A stretch of DNA of 64,000 nt from Prochlorococcus sp. AG-679-M23 (lineage in GTDB: Bacteria; Cyanobacteriota; Cyanobacteriia; PCC-6307; Cyanobiaceae). Below the pieces are notes generated by a model. It was not told the DNA's origin. It searched no databases and worked only from the letters and a program-made list of their open reading frames with translations. Location: assembly GCA_003208875.1 (NCBI GenBank), contig QCUR01000004.1, forward strand, positions 64,001 to 128,000, in the 5' to 3' direction. Positions 2,164 through 59,162 of this stretch are shown here, in pieces (within the stretch, counting starts at the first letter, position 1; each line of letters starts with the position of its first letter). Both the position numbers and the translations under genes were made by a program.

Positions 2164-2886
2164 ATGACTTTTACAAAATATCAATTTAATAATTACTGTT
2201 ATTGGCCTTCAAATCCAAAAAAAATTATAGAATTTATTGGAGGTAGCTATTTAGCATCTAAACCAGATTTAGCTTACAAAAGATTTATAAAAAGCTTAAT
2301 AGATAAAAATTTTGCAGTGCATGCATACAAATACACGCCTCAGTTTGATCATCAAGAACTGGCAATGAGAGCATGGAAAGATTTTAAAAGTTGTCAAAGA
2401 TCCTTATCAAAAAGAATAGGAACATCAATTCCTTCAATAAGAATTGGACATAGCCTTGGTTGTAAACTTCACTTAATTTCTCCAGATGGAGGTAGGAATT
2501 GCGAGAAATTCATATCAATAAGTTTTAATAACTTTAGTGCTAAAAGATCTATACCATTTTTAAAAAAGATTTCTCAAAAATTGGAATTCAATAGTGAATT
2601 CAGCCCAAGCCCAGATAGAACATTTGGAATAATAAAAAAAACTTATTATCAAAAAAATAATTTTCTAATAAAATTTAACTCAGATGAATTAGATCAAACA
2701 GATAAATTACTTTCTTGTCTTAGAGCAAGAAAAGAAGATAACTCAAAAGGGATAAAGCTTAAGGGAACTCATACTATTATTGTTAGCGCAGGACTAAGAG
2801 AAAATTTCTTAGGTGATTGGGCTGACGATGATTTTAAAAGAAATACAATAAAACAAATATCTAATTTGATTGATAAATCAATTTAA
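2164..2886 (+). CDS. DUF1350-family alpha/beta hydrolase
   Basis: [15 protein letters not shown] nucleophile elbow, EFSPSP, LDQT, GTH. Confidence 0.8.
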
Positions 2887-4865
2887 GATATTTCCTTTAA
2901 TTTTTCTAAAACAGAACTATCTTCAAGGGTACTAATATCTCCACTTATTTTTTCGCCTTCTGCCAAAGATCTCAAAATTCTTCTCATTATTTTTCCACTA
3001 CGCGTTTTTGGAAGAGAATCTGAAATTATTATTTTTTCTGGTTTAGCAATAATTCCAATTTCATTAACTACATGATTCTTAAACTCCTCAACTAATTCTG
3101 GAGAACTATTTATATCTTTTTCTAAAGATATAAATGCAACAATAGCCTCACCTTTTAAATCATCTTTTCTTCCGACAACAGCAGCTTCCGCAACTGATTT
3201 ATGACTTACTAATGCGGACTCTATTTCCATAGTTCCCAAACGATGCCCGGAAACACTTATAACATCATCGACTCTTCCCATAATCCAAATATATCCATCA
3301 TTATCAATCCGAGCCCCATCTCCAGCGAAATAAACATTTTTTTCCCCTTTAAAAGAAATATATTCCCAATAACTGTCTAAATATCTTTGGGAGTTTTCAT
3401 GAATTGTACGCATCATTCCAGGCCAAGGTTTTTTAACAATCAAATATCCACCCTCATTTTCCAACACCTTTTCTCCATTTTTATCTACAACTTCAACCTC
3501 GATTCCAGGCAAAGAGAATGTTGCAGAACCTGGCTTTGTAGCAACGGCTCCTGGCAAGGGACTTATCATCACACCACCAGTTTCAGTTTGCCACCATGTA
3601 TCTACTATTGGACACTTATTATCACCAATTACCTCTCGATACCACATCCATGCTTCAGGATTAATTGGCTCGCCAACTGATCCCAAAAGTCTCAAAGATC
3701 TTAAATCGTATTGGTCAGGGATTTCACGTCCAGATTTCATAAATGATCTTATCGCTGTTGGCGCTGTATAGAAAATAGTAACTTTGTATTTTTGAATAAT
3801 TTCCCAAAAAGCCCCTAAGTTAGATGCCCTCGGAACACCTTCAAACATAAGAGTTGATGCTCCATTGGATAAAGGTCCATAGACTATATAACTATGGCCA
3901 GTAATCCACCCAACATCTGCTGTACACCAATAGATATCATCATCTTTTATGTCAAAAATCCACTTGAATGTTAGGTGAGACCAGAGATTATAACCAGCAG
4001 TAGTATGAACAACACCCTTTGGTTTACCAGTGGATCCTGAAGTATACAAGACAAATAATCTATCTTCGCTATTCATAATTTCAGGTTCACACCAATCTTT
4101 TTGATCTTTTAATAGTTCGTGCCACCAAAAATCCCTATTGTTTACCATCGAAATATCTTTTTTAGTTCTTTGAACAACAATAACTTTTTCAACAATCTTA
4201 TTTGCCCCACTTTCAATTGCCGCATCAACAGCTTTCTTAAGCTCAATTACCTTATCTTTTCTAAACCCACCATCTGCCGTTATAACAAATCTGGCATTTC
4301 CATCAATTAACCTATCTTTTAACGACTCAGAGGAGAAGCCTCCAAAAACTACGGAATGAGGAGCTCCAATTCTTGCGCAAGCGAGCATGGCAACCATCGC
4401 CTCAGGAATCATTGGCATATAAATACAGACCAAATCACCTTTTTTTATTCCCAAAGATTTGAAAGCATTTGAAGCTTTGCATACTTCTTTGAGAAGTTCT
4501 TGATACGTATATTTCTTGTTATCTCCAGGCTCACCTTCCCATAGAAGCGCTGTTTTATTCCCAATTCCGTTTTTGATATGTCTATCTAAGCAGTTATAAG
4601 TGATATTCAACTTACCTTCCTTAAACCATTTAAAAAAGGGGGCATTTTCTCGGTCTAAAACAGTCTGAAATGGTTCGAACCAATCAATTTCCGAATTTGC
4701 AAAAGATTCCCAGAATTTTGTTGGGTTTTCTAAAGATTGTTTTTTTAAACTTTGTAATTCCTCAAAACTTTTTATATTTGATAAATCTGAGAATTCTTTT
4801 GAAGGGGGGAAGAGTCTATTTTCTTCAAGAATATTGTTGATTGAATGTTTCTTATCTAGTGTCAT
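2883..4865 (-). CDS. acs: Acetyl-CoA synthetase
   Basis: [32 protein letters not shown]. Confidence 0.97.
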
Positions 4866-53483: not shown

Positions 53484-53800
53484 GTAAGCTATCTCAGCGA
53501 GAAGAAAAAGAACTTATGTCTTTTATTAAAGATTGGTTAAAATCCCATGGATATACACAAAAAGATCTAGCTAATGAATTAAATATCAAATCAAGCCGAA
53601 CCTCCGAAATTAATCAAAAAGTTAAAGAATTTTATAAAAAAGGAGGAATTTTCAATATTATAAAAAATCTCATAAAGATAGAACAAAACTGGCTAAACAA
53701 TATTCGAACTAATTCTCAAGGAATAAACGAAACTCACCCATATAATCAATTAGATATCGACTCCTTAGTTAACCAAATAAAAAAAGATAGTAGTAAATAA
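53480..53800 (+). CDS. Hypothetical protein with XRE-like helix-turn-helix
   Basis: IKDWLKSHGYTQKDLANELNI; 4-nt overlap with the upstream gene. Confidence 0.6.
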   Translation: MSKLSQREEKELMSFIKDWLKSHGYTQKDLANELNIKSSRTSEINQKVKEFYKKGGIFNIIKNLIKIEQNWLNNIRTNSQGINETHPYNQLDIDSLVNQIKKDSSK

Positions 53801-54014
53801 ATATTTAAACTAAGCAATTTTTTTATTTAAAACATACTTACTTACTTATATAGAGAATATTTTAAAAATCATTTTTATTAAAATTTAAATTATTTCTATA
53901 TCATTTTTCTCATTAAATATAAAAACTTATTTTACAAGTTAAAAATTAATCGCAGTTCTAATAATAAATAAAATTAACTAAAAGATTATCGCTTTTTTAT
54001 TAATTAAAACTTTA

Positions 54015-54287
54015 TTAAAATGCTTGGATCCATGGATAAATATCAAAATTAATCCATATACCTTCTTGCCAATAAATATCTTTCTCAATTAGTTCTCTTA
54101 ATTCATTTTCATTATTAGCATTAAAAATAGCAAATAAATATTTTGTACATTTAGTAGGTCCTAAAGTAATTAAAATATTTCTATCTTTTAAATCCCCAAG
54201 TCTATCAAGATGATTTTTACGGAATGGTTCCCTTTTATTAATTGCATCATCACAATACTGGCCAAATACTATAAATTTTTCCATCAT
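54015..54287 (-). CDS. YciI family protein
   Basis: REPFRKNHL, LGP, DIYW. Confidence 0.85.
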   Translation of the reverse strand: MMEKFIVFGQYCDDAINKREPFRKNHLDRLGDLKDRNILITLGPTKCTKYLFAIFNANNENELRELIEKDIYWQEGIWINFDIYPWIQAF

Positions 54288-56036: not shown

Positions 56037-56270
56037 TTAACCTTTGCTATTTCCTCTTAATCTGAGATTTAAAAATGGAGAAAATATAATCAAACCTGGA
56101 AAAAAGAGAAAGACTAATCCATAAATTATTAATCTCTCAAATTTTCCCATAACATTCCATCTATTATTCATCCAGTAAAAAAGTATTAACGGAATAACAA
56201 ATAAATAAATAGAAATAATTCCAACGTAGGAAATTAAAGCAGCAAATGAATTATTTAAAATACTTTCCAT
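56037..56270 (-). CDS. ndhL: NDH-1 subunit L
   Basis: YLFVIP...RW...[26 protein letters not shown]. Confidence 0.92.
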
Positions 56271-56349
56271 TTAAAATTCTGGTTTATTTAGTTAAAACAT
56301 AACAACTATTAAAAGTTATCGTAAGAACTAAAAATAATTAGTTTAAGAA

Positions 56350-56435
56350 TGGGAGTGGGGGGACTTGAACCCCCACGAGCTAAAGCGCTCGACGGATTTT
56401 AAGTCCGGCGCGTCTACCAATTCCGCCACACTCCC
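56350..56435 (-). tRNA. trnL: tRNA-Leu(UAA), intron-less, CCA not encoded
   Basis: Acceptor GGGAGTG/CACTCCC, D-loop GGAATTGGTAGAC, anticodon loop CTTAAAA, long variable arm CGAGC/GCTCG, T-arm GGGGG-TTCAAGT-CCCCC. Confidence 0.97.
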
Positions 56436-56436
56436 A
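56396..56436. repeat. Direct repeat copy 1 (5' half of the intact tRNA-Leu; att-like)
   Basis: 40/41 identical to 57898-57938. Confidence 0.92.
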
Positions 56437-56621
56437 TAAGGAATTTGCGCTTTTCAATCGTAGCGGAAAGTATACCAATTAACCAAAAAATATCCCAATA
56501 TTTACACTTTTCTGGAATAGATGGATGCGCCAGAGTAATGATTATTTATTCATTACTGAATAAATAATTGCCTCTTCACAGTCTTTTAGCTAGCAATTAT
56601 GTAATTAACATAATAAAAAAG

Positions 56622-57740
56622 ATGAAAAAATTTATAGCATTATCTTTAATAAGTACGAGCTTTTTCATGTGTAGCAATTCAGTAAAAGCCGACCTAATAA
56701 GAGTAGTTACTTTAGGAAGTAAGAACTATAAAGTTCAACGCGTTAATGAAACAACCAATGAGGCTACTGATTTAGTTGAATTTAATCAACCTAGTGGAAT
56801 AGCATCTTCAGGTTCTTTTCTGGATTCTTACAATAGAAAACTTTATATGGCTGGTGATAGTGATGGATATACTATATATGATATTGACGCAAATACAATT
56901 ACAAAAGTACCTTACGGATTGACTGGCCAGCTTAATAATTTTGTACCTTGGGAAGGTAAAAACGTTATCAAAAAAAATGAAGATGGAACTATTCAGATAG
57001 GTGGGGATACTAATGATGTCGACATAACTTCAGAGGGTTTATCTGTTGATGGAGATCCCATAATTAGCAAGAAAGCAAATGGTGAATTACATATTGGTAA
57101 AAATTCTTGGATTACTAAAGAAGAAAACGGAAGACAAAAGGTTTATGCAAAAGATAATGCAGGAAATCCGATTCCTATTGATTACACAAATGGAACAAAA
57201 CTATTAATTAATGGAAGAGATGTTGAGCAATCGATTAATAATGTAGGGGCATTAAGTGCTGCTTTAACAGGATTACCAACCGTTCCATCTAATACGACTC
57301 TTGCCTGTGGTCTTGGAGCAGGAACTCATGGAGGTGATTTTGCTTTATCAGGAGGTTGTGCCTCTAAAGTTAATAAAACCTTATCAGTTAACTATGCGGC
57401 ATCAATGACAATGCCTGGGCAAGATTATGCAGGTGATTTTGAAGATCAGTTTTCAGCTAGAGCTGGCTTTGTTTGGCAATTAGGAAAATCAAATAAATCA
57501 ACTCAAATTAGTTTGAATCAGAAAAAAGAAATGGATCTAAAAATATCTAAACTAGAAAATAATAATGAATCTTTAAAATCTGATATTGAATTATTCAAAG
57601 AAGAAAACAAGGGACTGAAGGTTAAAAATAATGAAATTATTTCTCTAAATGCAAAGCTTATTGCGAGATTAGAAAGATTAGAAAATATTGCTTTTAAGTT
57701 ACAAAAAAATGAAGGACTTAAGTTATCACAGGGGCATTAA
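56622..57740 (+). CDS. YadA-like trimeric autotransporter / adhesin with C-terminal coiled-coil extension
   Basis: Start re-placed at MKKFIALSL...VKA signal peptide (56622); anchor-like INNVGALSAALTGLP...GLGAGTHGG..ALSGG...SARAGFVWQLG; then 84-aa tail containing heptads. Confidence 0.75.
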   Translation: MKKFIALSLISTSFFMCSNSVKADLIRVVTLGSKNYKVQRVNETTNEATDLVEFNQPSGIASSGSFLDSYNRKLYMAGDSDGYTIYDIDANTITKVPYGLTGQLNNFVPWEGKNVIKKNEDGTIQIGGDTNDVDITSEGLSVDGDPIISKKANGELHIGKNSWITKEENGRQKVYAKDNAGNPIPIDYTNGTKLLINGRDVEQSINNVGALSAALTGLPTVPSNTTLACGLGAGTHGGDFALSGGCASKVNKTLSVNYAASMTMPGQDYAGDFEDQFSARAGFVWQLGKSNKSTQISLNQKKEMDLKISKLENNNESLKSDIELFKEENKGLKVKNNEIISLNAKLIARLERLENIAFKLQKNEGLKLSQGH

Positions 57741-57828
57741 AGATAATAGTTACATCTTAATTTTCATTTATAATCACGCGCGAGATTATTGGTTGGATGT
57801 TTATCCTAATATGGAAGGGTTATATATT

Positions 57829-57859
57829 AAGAAAGGGACTGAGTTTTACCCCAATCCCT
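57829..57859 (-). terminator. Minus-strand hairpin / putative terminator downstream of the tRNA half
   Basis: AGGGAUUGGG-GUAAAA-CUCAGUCCCU: 10-bp stem with two G.U pairs, then UUCUU. Confidence 0.55.
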
Positions 57860-57897
57860 ATTTGACCAGTTAGCTAGTGTATAAGATTATCAATTTC

Positions 57898-57938
57898 ATT
57901 TTAAGTCCGGCGAGTCTACCAATTCCGCCACACTCCCA
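57898..57938 (-). pseudogene. tRNA-Leu(UAA) 5'-half fragment (direct repeat copy 2; att-like)
   Basis: GGGAGTGTGGCGGAATTGGTAGACTCGCCGGACTTAAAAT then unrelated sequence; one D-stem substitution. Confidence 0.9.
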
Positions 57939-58112
57939 AGAGGAATTTACCATTTTCCTAGCCGAAACTATCTCAATTAGACAAGAAAAATGCGAAAATT
58001 TAAATTTTCTCGCCATCTTAAAATTAATTTAAATCTTTCAATCATTAAATTAATCATTCATAAAAAATACTGTACTCATTTTTTTTATAAGTAATACAAT
58101 TTCTTTATCTTT

Positions 58113-59162
58113 TTATTTAACTACTCCCTCTACTTGCCAAGTTAAAGTTTCACCTCCATGAAATGGTTTTATTTGTCCAACAACTTTATTATTCTCAATT
58201 ACTTCAATAAATTCTGGAATTTCACGTGACCTAGATACCAATCTTATTTTTTCGTTATTGATAGGTAAATTATAAAAAGTAGGTCCATTCAAGCTAGCAA
58301 ATTTTTCGAATTGATCTAGTGCATTTTCCTCCTCAAAAACTTTTAAATAACTTTCTATTGCTACTGGAGAATTAAAAATGCCTGCACAACCACAAAAAGC
58401 TTTCCACTGTCTTAGGTGAGGAGCAGAATCTGTGCCTAAGAAAAAACATTCTTTTCCACTTGTGGCAGCTTTCCTTAAAGCAATTCTATTATTTTCTCTC
58501 TTAGCGACTGGTAGGCAGTAAAAGTCACTATTTAAACCTCCAAAGAACATTGCATTCCTATTTATGTGTAAATGATGAGGAGTAATAGTAGCTCCTAAGT
58601 TATTACTCTGAACAAAATCAACTGCATGAGAGGTGGTTATATGCTCTAAAACAATCTTTAATTTTGGAAATTGTTGTATTAAAGGTGAAAGTTCTTTATC
58701 TATAAAAACCTCTTCCCTATCAAAAATATCTACTTCAGGATCAGTTACTTCTCCATGAATTAAAAGTGGCATTCCAAGTTCTTGCATAACTTCAAATATT
58801 TCATAAAGATTTTCTATTTTTTTAACTCCATGTCTAGAGTTTGTTGTTGCATTAGCAGGATACAATTTGGCAGCAAAGAAAACTTTATTATTAAAGCCTT
58901 CTATTAATTCATGTTTTATTGTCTCGTCAGTCAGGTATATCGTCATTAATGGCTCAAACGTGGAATTACCAGATAATGCCTCAGATATAGATTTCTTATA
59001 AGAAATACATTTTTCTATAGAAGTTATTGGGTTTTTGGTATTTGGCATCACAATAGCCCTACCAAAATATTGAGAGGTAAACCTAATAATATTTTTTAAA
59101 ACAATACCTTCCCTTAAATGTAAATGCCAATCATCCGGTTTTAATATAATTAATTCTTTCAA
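58113..59162 (-). CDS. pyrC: Dihydroorotase (homodimeric type)
   Basis: PDDWHLHLR, VMPN, KLYPANATTNS, GTDSAPH. Confidence 0.96.
   Translation of the reverse strand: MKELIILKPDDWHLHLREGIVLKNIIRFTSQYFGRAIVMPNTKNPITSIEKCISYKKSISEALSGNSTFEPLMTIYLTDETIKHELIEGFNNKVFFAAKLYPANATTNSRHGVKKIENLYEIFEVMQELGMPLLIHGEVTDPEVDIFDREEVFIDKELSPLIQQFPKLKIVLEHITTSHAVDFVQSNNLGATITPHHLHINRNAMFFGGLNSDFYCLPVAKRENNRIALRKAATSGKECFFLGTDSAPHLRQWKAFCGCAGIFNSPVAIESYLKVFEEENALDQFEKFASLNGPTFYNLPINNEKIRLVSRSREIPEFIEVIENNKVVGQIKPFHGGETLTWQVEGVVK

What the first reader, a model, noticed from the sequence alone, without database searches (positions are those of the whole stretch)
56396..57938. Integrase-less micro-island marked by duplication of the 5' half (not the 3' end) of tRNA-Leu(UAA)
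Seen: 41-bp direct repeat (56396-56436 and 57898-57938, one mismatch) covering the tRNA 5' end through the whole anticodon loop. It brackets ~1.46 kb upstream of the intact tRNA, with one cargo gene and no recombinase. Established: integrases often cross over in tRNA anticodon loops but usually regenerate the 3' end; Prochlorococcus islands and tycheposon-type elements leave partial tRNA repeats. Inference: an element carrying the tRNA 5' half integrated in the reverse geometry and has decayed or is mobilised in trans, at a tRNA that reads TTA, a very common Leu codon in this window.
Basis: partly seen in the sequence, partly recalled or inferred. Interest (0 to 1): 0.75.

Follow-up and report, generated by a model that had tools for sequence, protein, structure and literature searches.

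The report
Cyanophage attachment-site gene cassette at tRNA-Leu
The duplicated half of tRNA-Leu marks the docking site of T7-like ocean cyanophages, and the 1.5 kb between the copies is a small integrase-less gene cassette, framed by phage attachment-site DNA, that carries an outer-membrane protein gene and differs from strain to strain.

Summary
The repeat is longer than reported: it runs on into the tRNA's upstream flank. The 39-41 nt core is not an orphan. It is the known attachment-site core of T7-like cyanopodoviruses (P-SSP7, P-SSP3, P-SSP2 and 90 IMG/VR contigs), where it lies between the phage integrase and RNA polymerase genes. Published work shows these lytic phages integrate into the first half of tRNA-Leu.

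In the window, the 120 nt left of the distal half-tRNA are 88% identical to a phage attP left arm. The flank beside the intact tRNA is a foreign-type tRNA upstream region that ends in the phage right-arm boundary motif. An outer-membrane protein gene with a YadA-type anchor sits where the phage genome would be. The genome holds no phage-type integrase.

Across relatives the site is polymorphic. Of 26 single-copy loci, 21 are empty. Another 21 genomes carry other cassettes: PspC, MORN, TPR, beta-barrel proteins, lipoproteins, or no gene at all. Two genomes hold tandem arrays.

Most likely this is a CIME-like, integrase-less cassette that entered by core recombination with phage integrase supplied in trans (about 0.5). 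The main rival is in-situ prophage decay followed by homologous exchange (about 0.35). It is not a tycheposon.

The parts
56037..56270 (-). ndhL, the conserved left neighbour of the site
   Evidence: Pfam NdhL, E=8e-27. It is adjacent to the tRNA in all loci with left flanks.
56349..56436 (-). Intact tRNA-Leu(UAA), the only copy in the genome. Its 5' half is the attL core.
   Evidence: ARAGORN; Rfam 56350-56435. It is the single tRNA-Leu(taa) among 38 tRNAs in the genome.
56396..56436 (.). Proximal copy of the repeat: the attachment-site core, identical to phage attP.
   Evidence: The 39-mer matches P-SSP7, P-SSP3 and P-SSP2 (94% over 51 nt of the 60-nt query) and 90 IMG/VR contigs exactly.
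56437..56511 (-). Cassette-borne tRNA upstream flank (about 76 nt) of foreign type. It holds a promoter-like site that points at the tRNA (56498-56469).
   Evidence: It is 90.8% identical to the proximal flanks of other class A cassettes but only 71.1% to the window's own distal flank. The promoter-like match comes, where the number of such matches in the region was not above the shuffle expectation.
56512..56540 (.). Proximal boundary motif (tggat-gcgccagag-taatg), the counterpart of the outer motif of the phage right arm that overlaps the int stop codon.
   Evidence: Class A/B cassettes end their conserved proximal part here, and the cargo starts after it.
56622..57740 (+). Cargo gene: a 372-aa secreted protein with a variable N-terminal part, a YadA-like membrane anchor (residues 219-286) and a C-terminal coiled coil.
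   Evidence: Pfam YadA_anchor at 22.7 bits, equal to the cut-off, and matched in 11 of 11 family members. The family is found in 74 of 285 genus genomes. There is no phage match.
57776..57898 (.). Phage attP left arm, which starts with the boundary motif cgcgcgagattat.
   Evidence: 57779-57898 is 88.3% identical to IMG/VR phage contig L134 positions 2881-3000, E=1.7e-38. The alignment with 14 phage contigs starts exactly at the motif, about 20 nt from the phage RNA polymerase start codon.
57834..57859 (-). Conserved hairpin followed by a T-run inside the left arm (terminator-like on the tRNA strand).
   Evidence: 4 terminator-like sites found against 0.9 +/- 0.9 in shuffles. The hairpin also forms in the fold, and it is conserved in phage arms.
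57898..57938 (-). Distal half-tRNA: the attR core, with one mismatch. It is not a tRNA on its own.
   Evidence: ARAGORN and Rfam do not call it.
57939..58112 (.). Native tRNA upstream flank of this clade, including the pyrC terminator-like hairpin (58013-57992, minus strand).
   Evidence: Its best matches are the distal flanks of the closest relatives (86.8% and 84.2%). Terminator-like site.
58113..59162 (-). pyrC (dihydroorotase-like amidohydrolase), the conserved right neighbour.
   Evidence: Pfam Amidohydro_1, E=1e-18. In empty sites its stop codon lies 105-111 nt from the core.

Best explanation
The two repeat copies are the attL and attR cores of the integration site that T7-like cyanopodoviruses (the P-SSP7 family) use in the 5' half of tRNA-Leu(UAA). 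The 1.46 kb between them is an integrase-less cassette built like a phage with its genome removed. Next to the intact tRNA lies a roughly 76-nt tRNA upstream flank, which must supply the promoter for this single-copy tRNA. That flank ends in the boundary motif of the phage right arm. Next comes a host-type outer-membrane protein gene, and then the 120-nt phage attP left arm and the displaced native half-tRNA. Shown here or in print: the identity of the site, the phage origin of the left arm, the absence of any phage-type integrase in the genome, and the polymorphism of the site. Inferred: the cassette arrived as a unit through a crossover in the core, catalysed by integrase from an infecting phage in a cell that survived, and it can leave or be exchanged the same way. 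In effect it is a cis-mobilizable element (CIME) of a lytic phage. Its likely function for the cell is to vary the cell envelope; that is inference only.
For: (1) The core, plus about 11 nt beyond the tRNA 5' end, matches P-SSP7, P-SSP3 and P-SSP2. In these phages it lies about 80 nt downstream of int and upstream of the RNA polymerase gene. The exact 39-mer occurs in 90 IMG/VR contigs. All 17 examined have a long ORF on the left (about 780-805 aa in 16, 517 aa in P-SSP3) and an ORF of about 290-330 aa on the right.
(2) Literature: a 42-bp match to the host tRNA-Leu downstream of the P-SSP7 int (Sullivan 2005, passages). P-SSP7 and S-TIP37 integrate at tRNA-Leu during lytic infection. For S-TIP37, deleting int or attP abolished integration. 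The attP motifs match the first half of tRNA-Leu (Shitrit 2022, passages).
(3) Window 57779-57898 is 88.3% identical to a phage left arm. All 23 of 23 cassettes compared end in a phage left arm of 84-181 nt.
(4) Homology between host cassettes and phages starts exactly at a motif about 20 nt from the phage RNAP start codon in 9 of 9 class A cassettes, which carry six different cargo states. The proximal arm ends in the same motif that overlaps the phage int stop codon. The motif CGCT[AG]G is about 35-fold enriched in phage arms, at three fixed positions.
(5) The window's proximal flank is of a foreign type (90.8% to other cassettes, 71.1% to its own distal flank). The distal flank is the native type of the clade. 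This is what a core crossover with an imported circle predicts.
(6) Turnover: 21 of 26 single-copy loci are empty. The closest relatives carry other cassettes. G182 and G077 have 96-98% identical flanks and 96% identical arms but unrelated cargo. The same PspC cargo occurs with two different arm classes. The same cargo as in the window sits behind a different left-arm subtype in G064 and G011. Tandem arrays occur in G076 and G027.
(7) G000 has no phage-type Int or RNAP (tblastn). Its only Phage_integrase hits are a conserved 390-aa gene 36 kb beyond the window and one weak fragment.
Against: No excised circle, empty-site read or joint across the cassette was seen (contigs only, so rare forms could not show). 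The window cassette is about as diverged from its orthologues in G064 and G011 (82% nt) as the flanking core genes are (79-81%). That fits old vertical inheritance as well as transfer. Class C cassettes keep fragments of the int 3' end and the RNAP 5' end, with varying end points, so at least some cassettes are true deletion remnants of prophages. The distal cores of G064 and G011 have decayed (5 mismatches each), so there the site is not maintained. No excisionase is known for these phages. Stable lysogens have never been obtained, and infection normally kills the cell (Shitrit 2022). The origin of the host-like proximal arm of class A/B cassettes is unexplained: none of the 80 fetched phage contigs has such a right arm. 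Cargo genes are not found in phages.
Confidence: 0.6

Rival explanations
1. In-situ decay with homologous exchange. A whole T7-like cyanophage once integrated here in an ancestor that survived, and its genome was then lost or replaced. Since then the remnant, with whatever gene lies in it, has been inherited vertically and swapped between strains only by ordinary homologous recombination through the conserved arms and flanking genes. Integrase plays no further part.
For: Class C cassettes contain int C-terminal codons (L034, L043, L047 and the second G027 cassette) and 29-37 N-terminal codons of RNAP (L042 c1 and c2, L043), with variable end points. The cargo-less 211-nt cassette of G199 looks like a deletion between the two outer motifs. 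Cassette divergence between the window and G064/G011 equals flank divergence. Distal cores decay with distance from the tRNA in G027, G044 and G024. Every cassette shares at least 100 nt of homology on each side, which is enough for exchange.
Against: A simple deletion cannot put host-type genes between the arms. The nine class A cassettes, with six cargo states, share exactly the same two boundaries. The window's proximal flank is foreign while the sequence directly right of the distal core is native. The inner 50 nt of the window's left arm differ at only 3 positions from a present-day phage contig, while the cargo is 18% diverged from its orthologues. That implies later contact with phage DNA.
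Confidence: 0.35
2. A decayed tycheposon or other cellular integrative element of the Prochlorococcus island type.
For: Partial tRNA repeats and small cargo are typical of tycheposon islands (Hackl et al. preprint, passages). The cargo is of the flexible envelope-gene type.
Against: The seven tycheposon tRNAs are Pro, Ser, Ala, Thr, Arg, Met and tmRNA. 'tRNA-Leu', 'P-SSP7' and 'T7-like' each occur 0 times in that preprint. Both arms match T7-like phage attP. No hallmark genes are present.
Confidence: 0.03
3. Assembly artefact or a local partial duplication of the tRNA gene unrelated to any mobile element.
For: None beyond the fact that repeats can break or mislead assemblies (G112 is split at this site).
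Against: The same architecture occurs in 21 other genomes. Metagenome contigs from other studies bridge both junctions. Phage-homologous DNA abuts the distal copy.
Confidence: 0.01

Closest known systems
attP/attB of T7-like cyanophages (P-SSP7, S-TIP37; Sullivan et al. 2005; Shitrit et al. 2022)
   Same: The same 39-42 nt core in the first half of tRNA-Leu, and the same position of the core between int and the RNA polymerase gene in the phage. The left arm next to the window's distal copy is homologous to phage attP.
   Different: The passages I read describe transient integration of whole phages, with no stable product. Here the stable product is a 1.5-kb cassette without any phage gene, carrying a host-type gene. 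It is one of many alleles of a polymorphic site.
CIMEs (cis-mobilizable elements of streptococcal ICE/IME sites; definition read in Guedon et al. 2017)
   Same: It has kept attL and attR and has lost its integration genes. Tandem accretion at the same site occurs (G076, G027).
   Different: The parent element is a lytic T7-like phage, not a conjugative element. The target is the 5' half of a tRNA, so the element must bring a promoter. Descent of the window cassette from a whole element by decay is not shown, and mobilisation is untested.
Tycheposons and tRNA-proximal genomic islands of Prochlorococcus (Hackl et al.)
   Same: A tRNA-anchored, directional, additive micro-island with partial tRNA copies. 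Older units lie further from the tRNA and are more decayed. The cargo is flexible envelope genes.
   Different: A different tRNA, a different recombinase lineage (phage Int supplied from outside the cell), units of 0.25-1.6 kb, and no hallmark genes.
Integron gene cassettes
   Same: Promoter-poor single-gene units with conserved recombination ends, arrayed at one site and dependent on a recombinase they do not encode.
   Different: There is no intI, attI or attC. The ends are the two arms of a phage attP, and the recombinase is not resident in the genome.

Membership tests
T7-like cyanophage tRNA-Leu attachment site | An identity block of about 39-42 nt between phage and the first half of host tRNA-Leu | tested here: met
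   94% over 51 nt (query positions 2-52) to P-SSP7, P-SSP3 and P-SSP2. The exact 39-mer occurs in those three phage loci and in 90 IMG/VR contigs.
T7-like cyanophage tRNA-Leu attachment site | [quoted passage not shown] | tested here: met
   It lies 72-105 nt from an ORF of about 290-330 aa in 17 of 17 phage loci. That ORF is annotated as integrase in P-SSP7 and P-SSP3.
T7-like cyanophage tRNA-Leu attachment site | Host junctions carry phage arm DNA beside the duplicated core | tested here: met
   Left arm 88.3% over 120 nt. Only the boundary motif of the right arm is phage-like in the window. The full right arm is present in class C cassettes and in contig L172.
T7-like cyanophage tRNA-Leu attachment site | Integrase- and attP-dependent recombination | not testable with these tools
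   Published for S-TIP37 (mutants) and for P-SSP7 (PCR of junctions). Not tested for this cassette.
CIME (cis-mobilizable element) | Retains attL and attR | tested here: met
   Two cores with 1 mismatch, plus arms.
CIME (cis-mobilizable element) | Lacks integration and transfer genes | tested here: met
   The single ORF has no recombinase domain. The genome has no phage-type Int.
CIME (cis-mobilizable element) | Derived from a complete element by decay | tested here: inconclusive
   Fragments of int and RNAP are found in class C cassettes of other genomes but not in the window cassette or any class A/B cassette.
CIME (cis-mobilizable element) | Can be mobilised by a related element's integrase | not testable with these tools
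   Only indirect evidence: the foreign proximal flank, arm and cargo reassortment, and arrays.
Tycheposon | Integration at one of the seven island tRNAs (Pro, Ser, Ala, Thr, Arg, Met, tmRNA) | tested here: not met
   The site is tRNA-Leu(UAA). The list of seven was read.
Tycheposon | Hallmark tyrosine recombinase and replication module | tested here: not met
   None between the repeats.
Integron | intI with attI and cassettes ending in attC | tested here: not met
   No recombinase in or beside the array. The ends are phage attP arms.
Prophage | Phage structural or replication genes between the att sites | tested here: not met
   No match of the cassette DNA or protein to 50,697 phage records or to PHROGs.
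Trimeric autotransporter adhesin (cargo protein) | YadA-like beta-barrel anchor domain | tested here: met
   PF03895 at 22.7 bits, equal to the cut-off, for the window protein. 11 of 11 family members match, best E=1.2e-5. This is the most conserved part of the family.
Trimeric autotransporter adhesin (cargo protein) | Anchor at the extreme C-terminus, preceded by a coiled-coil stalk | tested here: not met
   The anchor spans residues 219-286 of 372 and is followed, not preceded, by the coiled-coil-like tail. No solved relative was found.

The most novel reading that the evidence does not exclude
Lytic T7-like cyanophages drive an integron-like system in Prochlorococcus. Small cassettes that keep the complete phage attP, from one outer motif to the other, but carry a host envelope gene instead of the phage genome, are inserted, stacked, swapped and removed at the tRNA-Leu sites by integrase delivered during infections that the cell survives. 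The phage's own recombinase would then be the engine that diversifies the cell surface the phages must recognise. The same genome shows the pattern twice, at tRNA-Leu(UAA) and at tRNA-Leu(AAG), with two different phage integrase groups.
Probability: 0.3. Interest if true: 0.8.

Novelty: new variant of a known kind. Interest (0 to 1): 0.6.

Why it matters
Why lytic T7-like cyanophages keep an integrase and integrate transiently is an open question. Shitrit et al. 2022 state that the benefit 'remains uncertain' and suggest it may bring new genes into hosts. How Prochlorococcus acquires flexible genes without plasmids, conjugation or prophages is also open.

This locus gives a concrete genomic footprint of that integration. 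It is a polymorphic site in the world's most abundant phototroph where short cassettes, framed by phage attachment-site arms, carry outer-membrane and envelope proteins. At the 3-mismatch threshold it is occupied in at least 23 of 154 genomes.

If the cassettes move with phage integrase, an experimentally tractable system exists to test phage-driven gene flow into the host. Int-deletion phages have already been made for S-TIP37 and Syn5. If the cassettes do not move, the site is still a useful marker of past integration by phages that leave no prophages.

Tried and rejected
**Tycheposon origin.** Rejected.

**Prophage remnant carrying phage genes.** The cassette DNA and the cargo protein have no match in 50,697 phage records or in PHROGs.

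**Search for a whole prophage in the closest relative G112.** Its two junction contigs end in cassette-like arms only. Contig C30, which holds an extra recombinase hit, has no similarity to the phage loci. The PF00940 search rang nowhere, not even in the controls, and says nothing.

**Metagenome scan for left arm + core + host-type flank.** Only 2 contigs matched, both ordinary integrated forms. One has a phage-type right arm. No circular or permuted contig was found.

**Laying contigs of 4 seawater runs.** The pieces were too short. No contig joined across the cassette and no circle junction appeared. One unrelated joint (58012 to 58110) was seen in one run. Depth differences between the core and the cassette are not interpretable.

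**Family-wide scan for the core.** It is found in only 3 of 36 genera, and two copies occur only in G000 and G027. Nothing was learnt about Synechococcus.

**Promoter scan.** The promoter-like site upstream of the tRNA is one of 7 matches, against 9.5 +/- 3.1 expected, so it carries no statistical weight.

**PDB searches with the cargo protein and with its family profile.** No usable match. NCBIfam gave only weak coiled-coil hits.

**Earlier notes of this scan.** None for this genome.

**Literature searches for a description of cassettes at this site.** None found among the papers listed. The library lacks most subscription-journal papers (for example, recalled: Labrie et al. 2013, Malmstrom et al. 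2013, and the final Cell version of Hackl et al.). Supplements were not read.
Full report
**Observation**

The window has the composition of a high-light Prochlorococcus genome (GC about 0.30). Its gene order here is trpA - DUF3007 gene - ndhL - tRNA-Leu(UAA) - one plus-strand gene - half tRNA - pyrC. It extends further than reported: 60 nt at 90% without gaps. With gaps, similarity continues about 76 nt beyond the tRNA 5' end. The genome holds exactly two copies of the 39-mer. tRNA-Leu(UAA) is single-copy among 38 tRNAs. TTA makes up 130 of 234 Leu codons in the seven genes around the site. An element that cuts this gene in its 5' half must therefore restore both the 5' half and a promoter.

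**What the repeat is**

A megablast of the 60-mer against 50,697 phage records hit seven records of three T7-like cyanopodoviruses: P-SSP7, P-SSP3 and P-SSP2. Identity was 94% over 51 nt, which reaches past the tRNA 5' end. [quoted passage not shown]

The exact 39-mer also occurs in 90 IMG/VR contigs. All 17 that I examined have the same layout:
- a long ORF on the left (about 780-805 aa in 16; 517 aa in P-SSP3);
- the core;
- an ORF of about 290-330 aa on the right, 72-105 nt from the core.

This site is in print. Sullivan et al. 2005 reported a 42-bp match between P-SSP7 and the non-coding strand of the host leucine tRNA gene, downstream of int (passages). Shitrit et al. 2022 showed by PCR that P-SSP7 and S-TIP37 integrate at tRNA-Leu during lytic infection. 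For S-TIP37, deleting int or attP abolished integration.

The tycheposon preprint lists seven target tRNAs. Leu is not among them, and the preprint never mentions P-SSP7 or T7-like phages.

**Anatomy of the window's insert**

- *Left arm.* The last 120 nt before the distal half-tRNA (57779-57898) are 88.3% identical to the attP left arm of an uncultured phage group (E=1.7e-38). In an alignment of nine host cassettes and 14 phage contigs, homology begins at exactly the same point. That point is the motif gcgctaga(t)tat, about 20 nt from the phage RNA polymerase start codon. No phage coding sequence is retained.
- *Hairpin.* The arm contains a conserved hairpin with a T-run on the tRNA strand.
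- *Proximal side.* About 76 nt of tRNA-upstream-type sequence lie beside the intact tRNA. They are followed by tggat-gcgccagag. This is the counterpart of tggac(a/g)cgctagatat, which in the phages ends the right arm and overlaps the int stop codon.
- *Cargo position.* The cargo therefore sits exactly where the phage body, from int to the RNA polymerase gene, sits in an integrated phage.
- *Motif enrichment.* In 51 phage loci the motif CGCT[AG]G occurs 58 times in the arms (4.5 per kb) against 37 times elsewhere (0.13 per kb). It falls at three fixed positions and is present in 20 loci. I read these as candidate integrase arm sites or promoter elements. That is inference.
- *Flank types.* The proximal 76-nt flank is foreign. 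Its best matches are the proximal flanks of other cassettes (90.8%, 90.8%, 88.2%). It is only 71.1% identical to the window's own distal flank, whose best matches are the distal flanks of the closest relatives (86.8%, 84.2%).
- *Recombinases.* G000 has no phage-type integrase or RNA polymerase. Its only Phage_integrase hits are a conserved 390-aa gene outside the window and one weak fragment.

**The cargo**

The 372-aa protein has a signal-peptide-like start (by eye), a variable N-terminal part, a YadA-like anchor and a coiled-coil-like tail. The anchor scores 22.7 bits, which equals the Pfam cut-off, but 11 of 11 aligned family members match it, and it is the most conserved region. The anchor is not at the C-terminus, so I do not file the protein as a classical trimeric autotransporter.

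The family is a multi-copy Prochlorococcus family. It is found in 74 of 285 genus genomes, often in tandem clusters elsewhere, and G000 has one paralogue on contig C1. It has no phage relatives and no solved relatives.

**The site in relatives**

*Copy counts.* Of 201 genus genomes (including G000), 154 hold the core at 3 mismatches or fewer. By my count of the table, 23 of these hold two copies. This is a lower bound. G064, G011, G153 and G194 have second copies with more mismatches.

*Single-copy loci.* Of 26 fetched, 21 are empty, with 105-111 nt between the core and the pyrC stop codon. The other 5 have inserts of 184-1195 nt with a decayed second copy or none.

*Two-copy loci.* I read 21 of the 22 other two-copy genomes; G115 was not read. 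In all 20 genomes where both copies lie on one contig, the intact tRNA is on the ndhL side and the half copy on the pyrC side.

*Shared ends.* All 23 of 23 cassettes end in a phage left arm of 84-181 nt at 81-93% identity. Nine 'class C' cassettes also begin with a phage right arm.

*Cargo.*
- PspC-domain proteins in five genomes.
- DUF3721 lipoproteins in four.
- TPR proteins in three cassettes.
- MORN proteins in two.
- OMP beta-barrel proteins in two.
- Several proteins with no family match.
- One cassette of 211 nt with no gene, in which the two outer motifs are fused.

*Arrays.* G076 has two cassettes in tandem. G027 has about three, and the cores are more decayed the further they lie from the tRNA.

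*Closest relatives.* The closest relatives of G000 carry other occupants. G112 has another cassette, whose right arm is 97% identical to P-SSP3 and ends at the int stop codon. G093 and G034 have PspC cassettes. G015 has a 184-nt gap.

**How it most likely works**

*Shown.* The site is the phage attachment site. The left arm is of phage origin. The cassette has no recombinase. The site turns over between strains.

*Inferred: the cassette entered as a unit by a crossover in the core.* Four lines support this:
- The proximal flank is foreign and the distal flank native.
- Class A cassettes with six cargo states share identical boundaries.
- Cargo and arms reassort. PspC occurs with two arm classes. 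G182 and G077 have 96-98% identical flanks and 96% identical arms but unrelated cargo. G064 and G011 carry the window's cargo behind a different left-arm subtype, while the window's inner arm differs from a phage contig at 3 of about 50 positions.
- Cassettes occur in tandem arrays.

The only known recombinase for this core is the phage integrase, and it would have to come from an infecting phage.

*Against this.*
- No excised form was seen.
- The window cassette is as diverged from its orthologues as the flanks are (82% against 79-81%).
- Class C cassettes hold int and RNA polymerase gene fragments with varied end points, which shows real in-place decay of prophages.
- Infection usually kills the cell.
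- The host-like proximal arm of class A/B cassettes has no counterpart among the 80 phage contigs fetched.

*Odds.*
- About 0.9 that this is a scar or product of T7-like cyanophage integrase action.
- About 0.5 that cassettes are still mobilised in trans.
- About 0.35 that only decay and homologous exchange are at work.

**Comparison and novelty**

The attachment site itself is known. [quoted passage not shown] Here the parent would be a lytic phage. It also resembles the directional, tRNA-proximal growth model proposed for Prochlorococcus islands and, loosely, integron arrays.

Four full-text searches listed no paper that describes cassettes at this site. The library lacks most subscription-journal papers, and I read no supplements, so prior description cannot be excluded. 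I rate it a new variant of a known kind.

**In passing**

The same genome has a second site of this type at tRNA-Leu(AAG) on contig C1. The half-tRNA and its flank are repeated 1.6 kb upstream. The repeat is preceded by a left-arm-like stretch with the same hairpin, and a 430-aa secreted protein gene lies between the copies. Six IMG/VR contigs carry that 40-mer between a T7-like RNA polymerase gene and a divergent integrase gene.

Noticed in passing
Outside the window: G000 contig C1 65668-67419 (locus L173): A second micro-island of the same design at tRNA-Leu(AAG). The 5' half plus upstream flank (56 nt, 92.9%) is repeated 1.6 kb upstream. The repeat is preceded by a left-arm-like stretch with the same hairpin, and a 430-aa signal-peptide ORF lies between the copies. 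Six IMG/VR contigs carry the exact 40-mer between a T7-like RNA polymerase gene and a divergent tyrosine integrase gene. Among 93 well-assembled genus genomes, only G111 shows a nearby second copy at 3 mismatches or fewer.
   Followed up: partly
Phage loci L058-L137; window 56524-56540 and 57776-57790: The motif (a/g)cgctagat(a/t)t occurs in direct orientation at three fixed places of class A/B phage attP: about -120 and -30 from the core start, and about +85 after the core end, where it overlaps the int stop codon. It is about 35-fold enriched over the rest of the loci. The host cargo sits exactly between the two outer copies. Its function is unknown; it could be an integrase arm site or a promoter element.
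   Followed up: partly
L042 (G076), L167 (G027): Tandem arrays of two and about three cassettes at the same tRNA. The half-tRNA copies decay progressively with distance from the tRNA (92%, then 82% identity in G027).
   Followed up: partly
L037, L041 versus L044, L045, L054: The same small PspC-domain gene occurs between two different classes of phage arms. In one class the proximal arm is host-flank-like; in the other both arms are of phage type.
   Followed up: partly
window 56622-57740; G000 C1:52743-53546; for example G064 C4:74651-80027: The cargo belongs to a multi-copy family found in this genus (74 of 285 genomes) that has a YadA-like anchor in mid-protein and a variable N-terminal part. 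It often lies in tandem clusters, commonly about 12-13 kb from tRNA-Leu(AAG).
   Followed up: partly
L172 (metagenome contig, 2173 nt): A class A cassette that still has a phage-type right arm (84% to P-SSP7 over 95 nt) as well as the left arm. It may be an intermediate between the two cassette classes. Its interior was not analysed.
   Followed up: no
window 53600-54200: GC content drops to 0.18-0.19 in an apparently non-coding stretch between small ORFs. Not examined.
   Followed up: no
window 57688-57873: A 61-aa ORF overlaps the end of the cargo gene and the phage left arm. It has no meaningful family match and is probably not a gene.
   Followed up: partly
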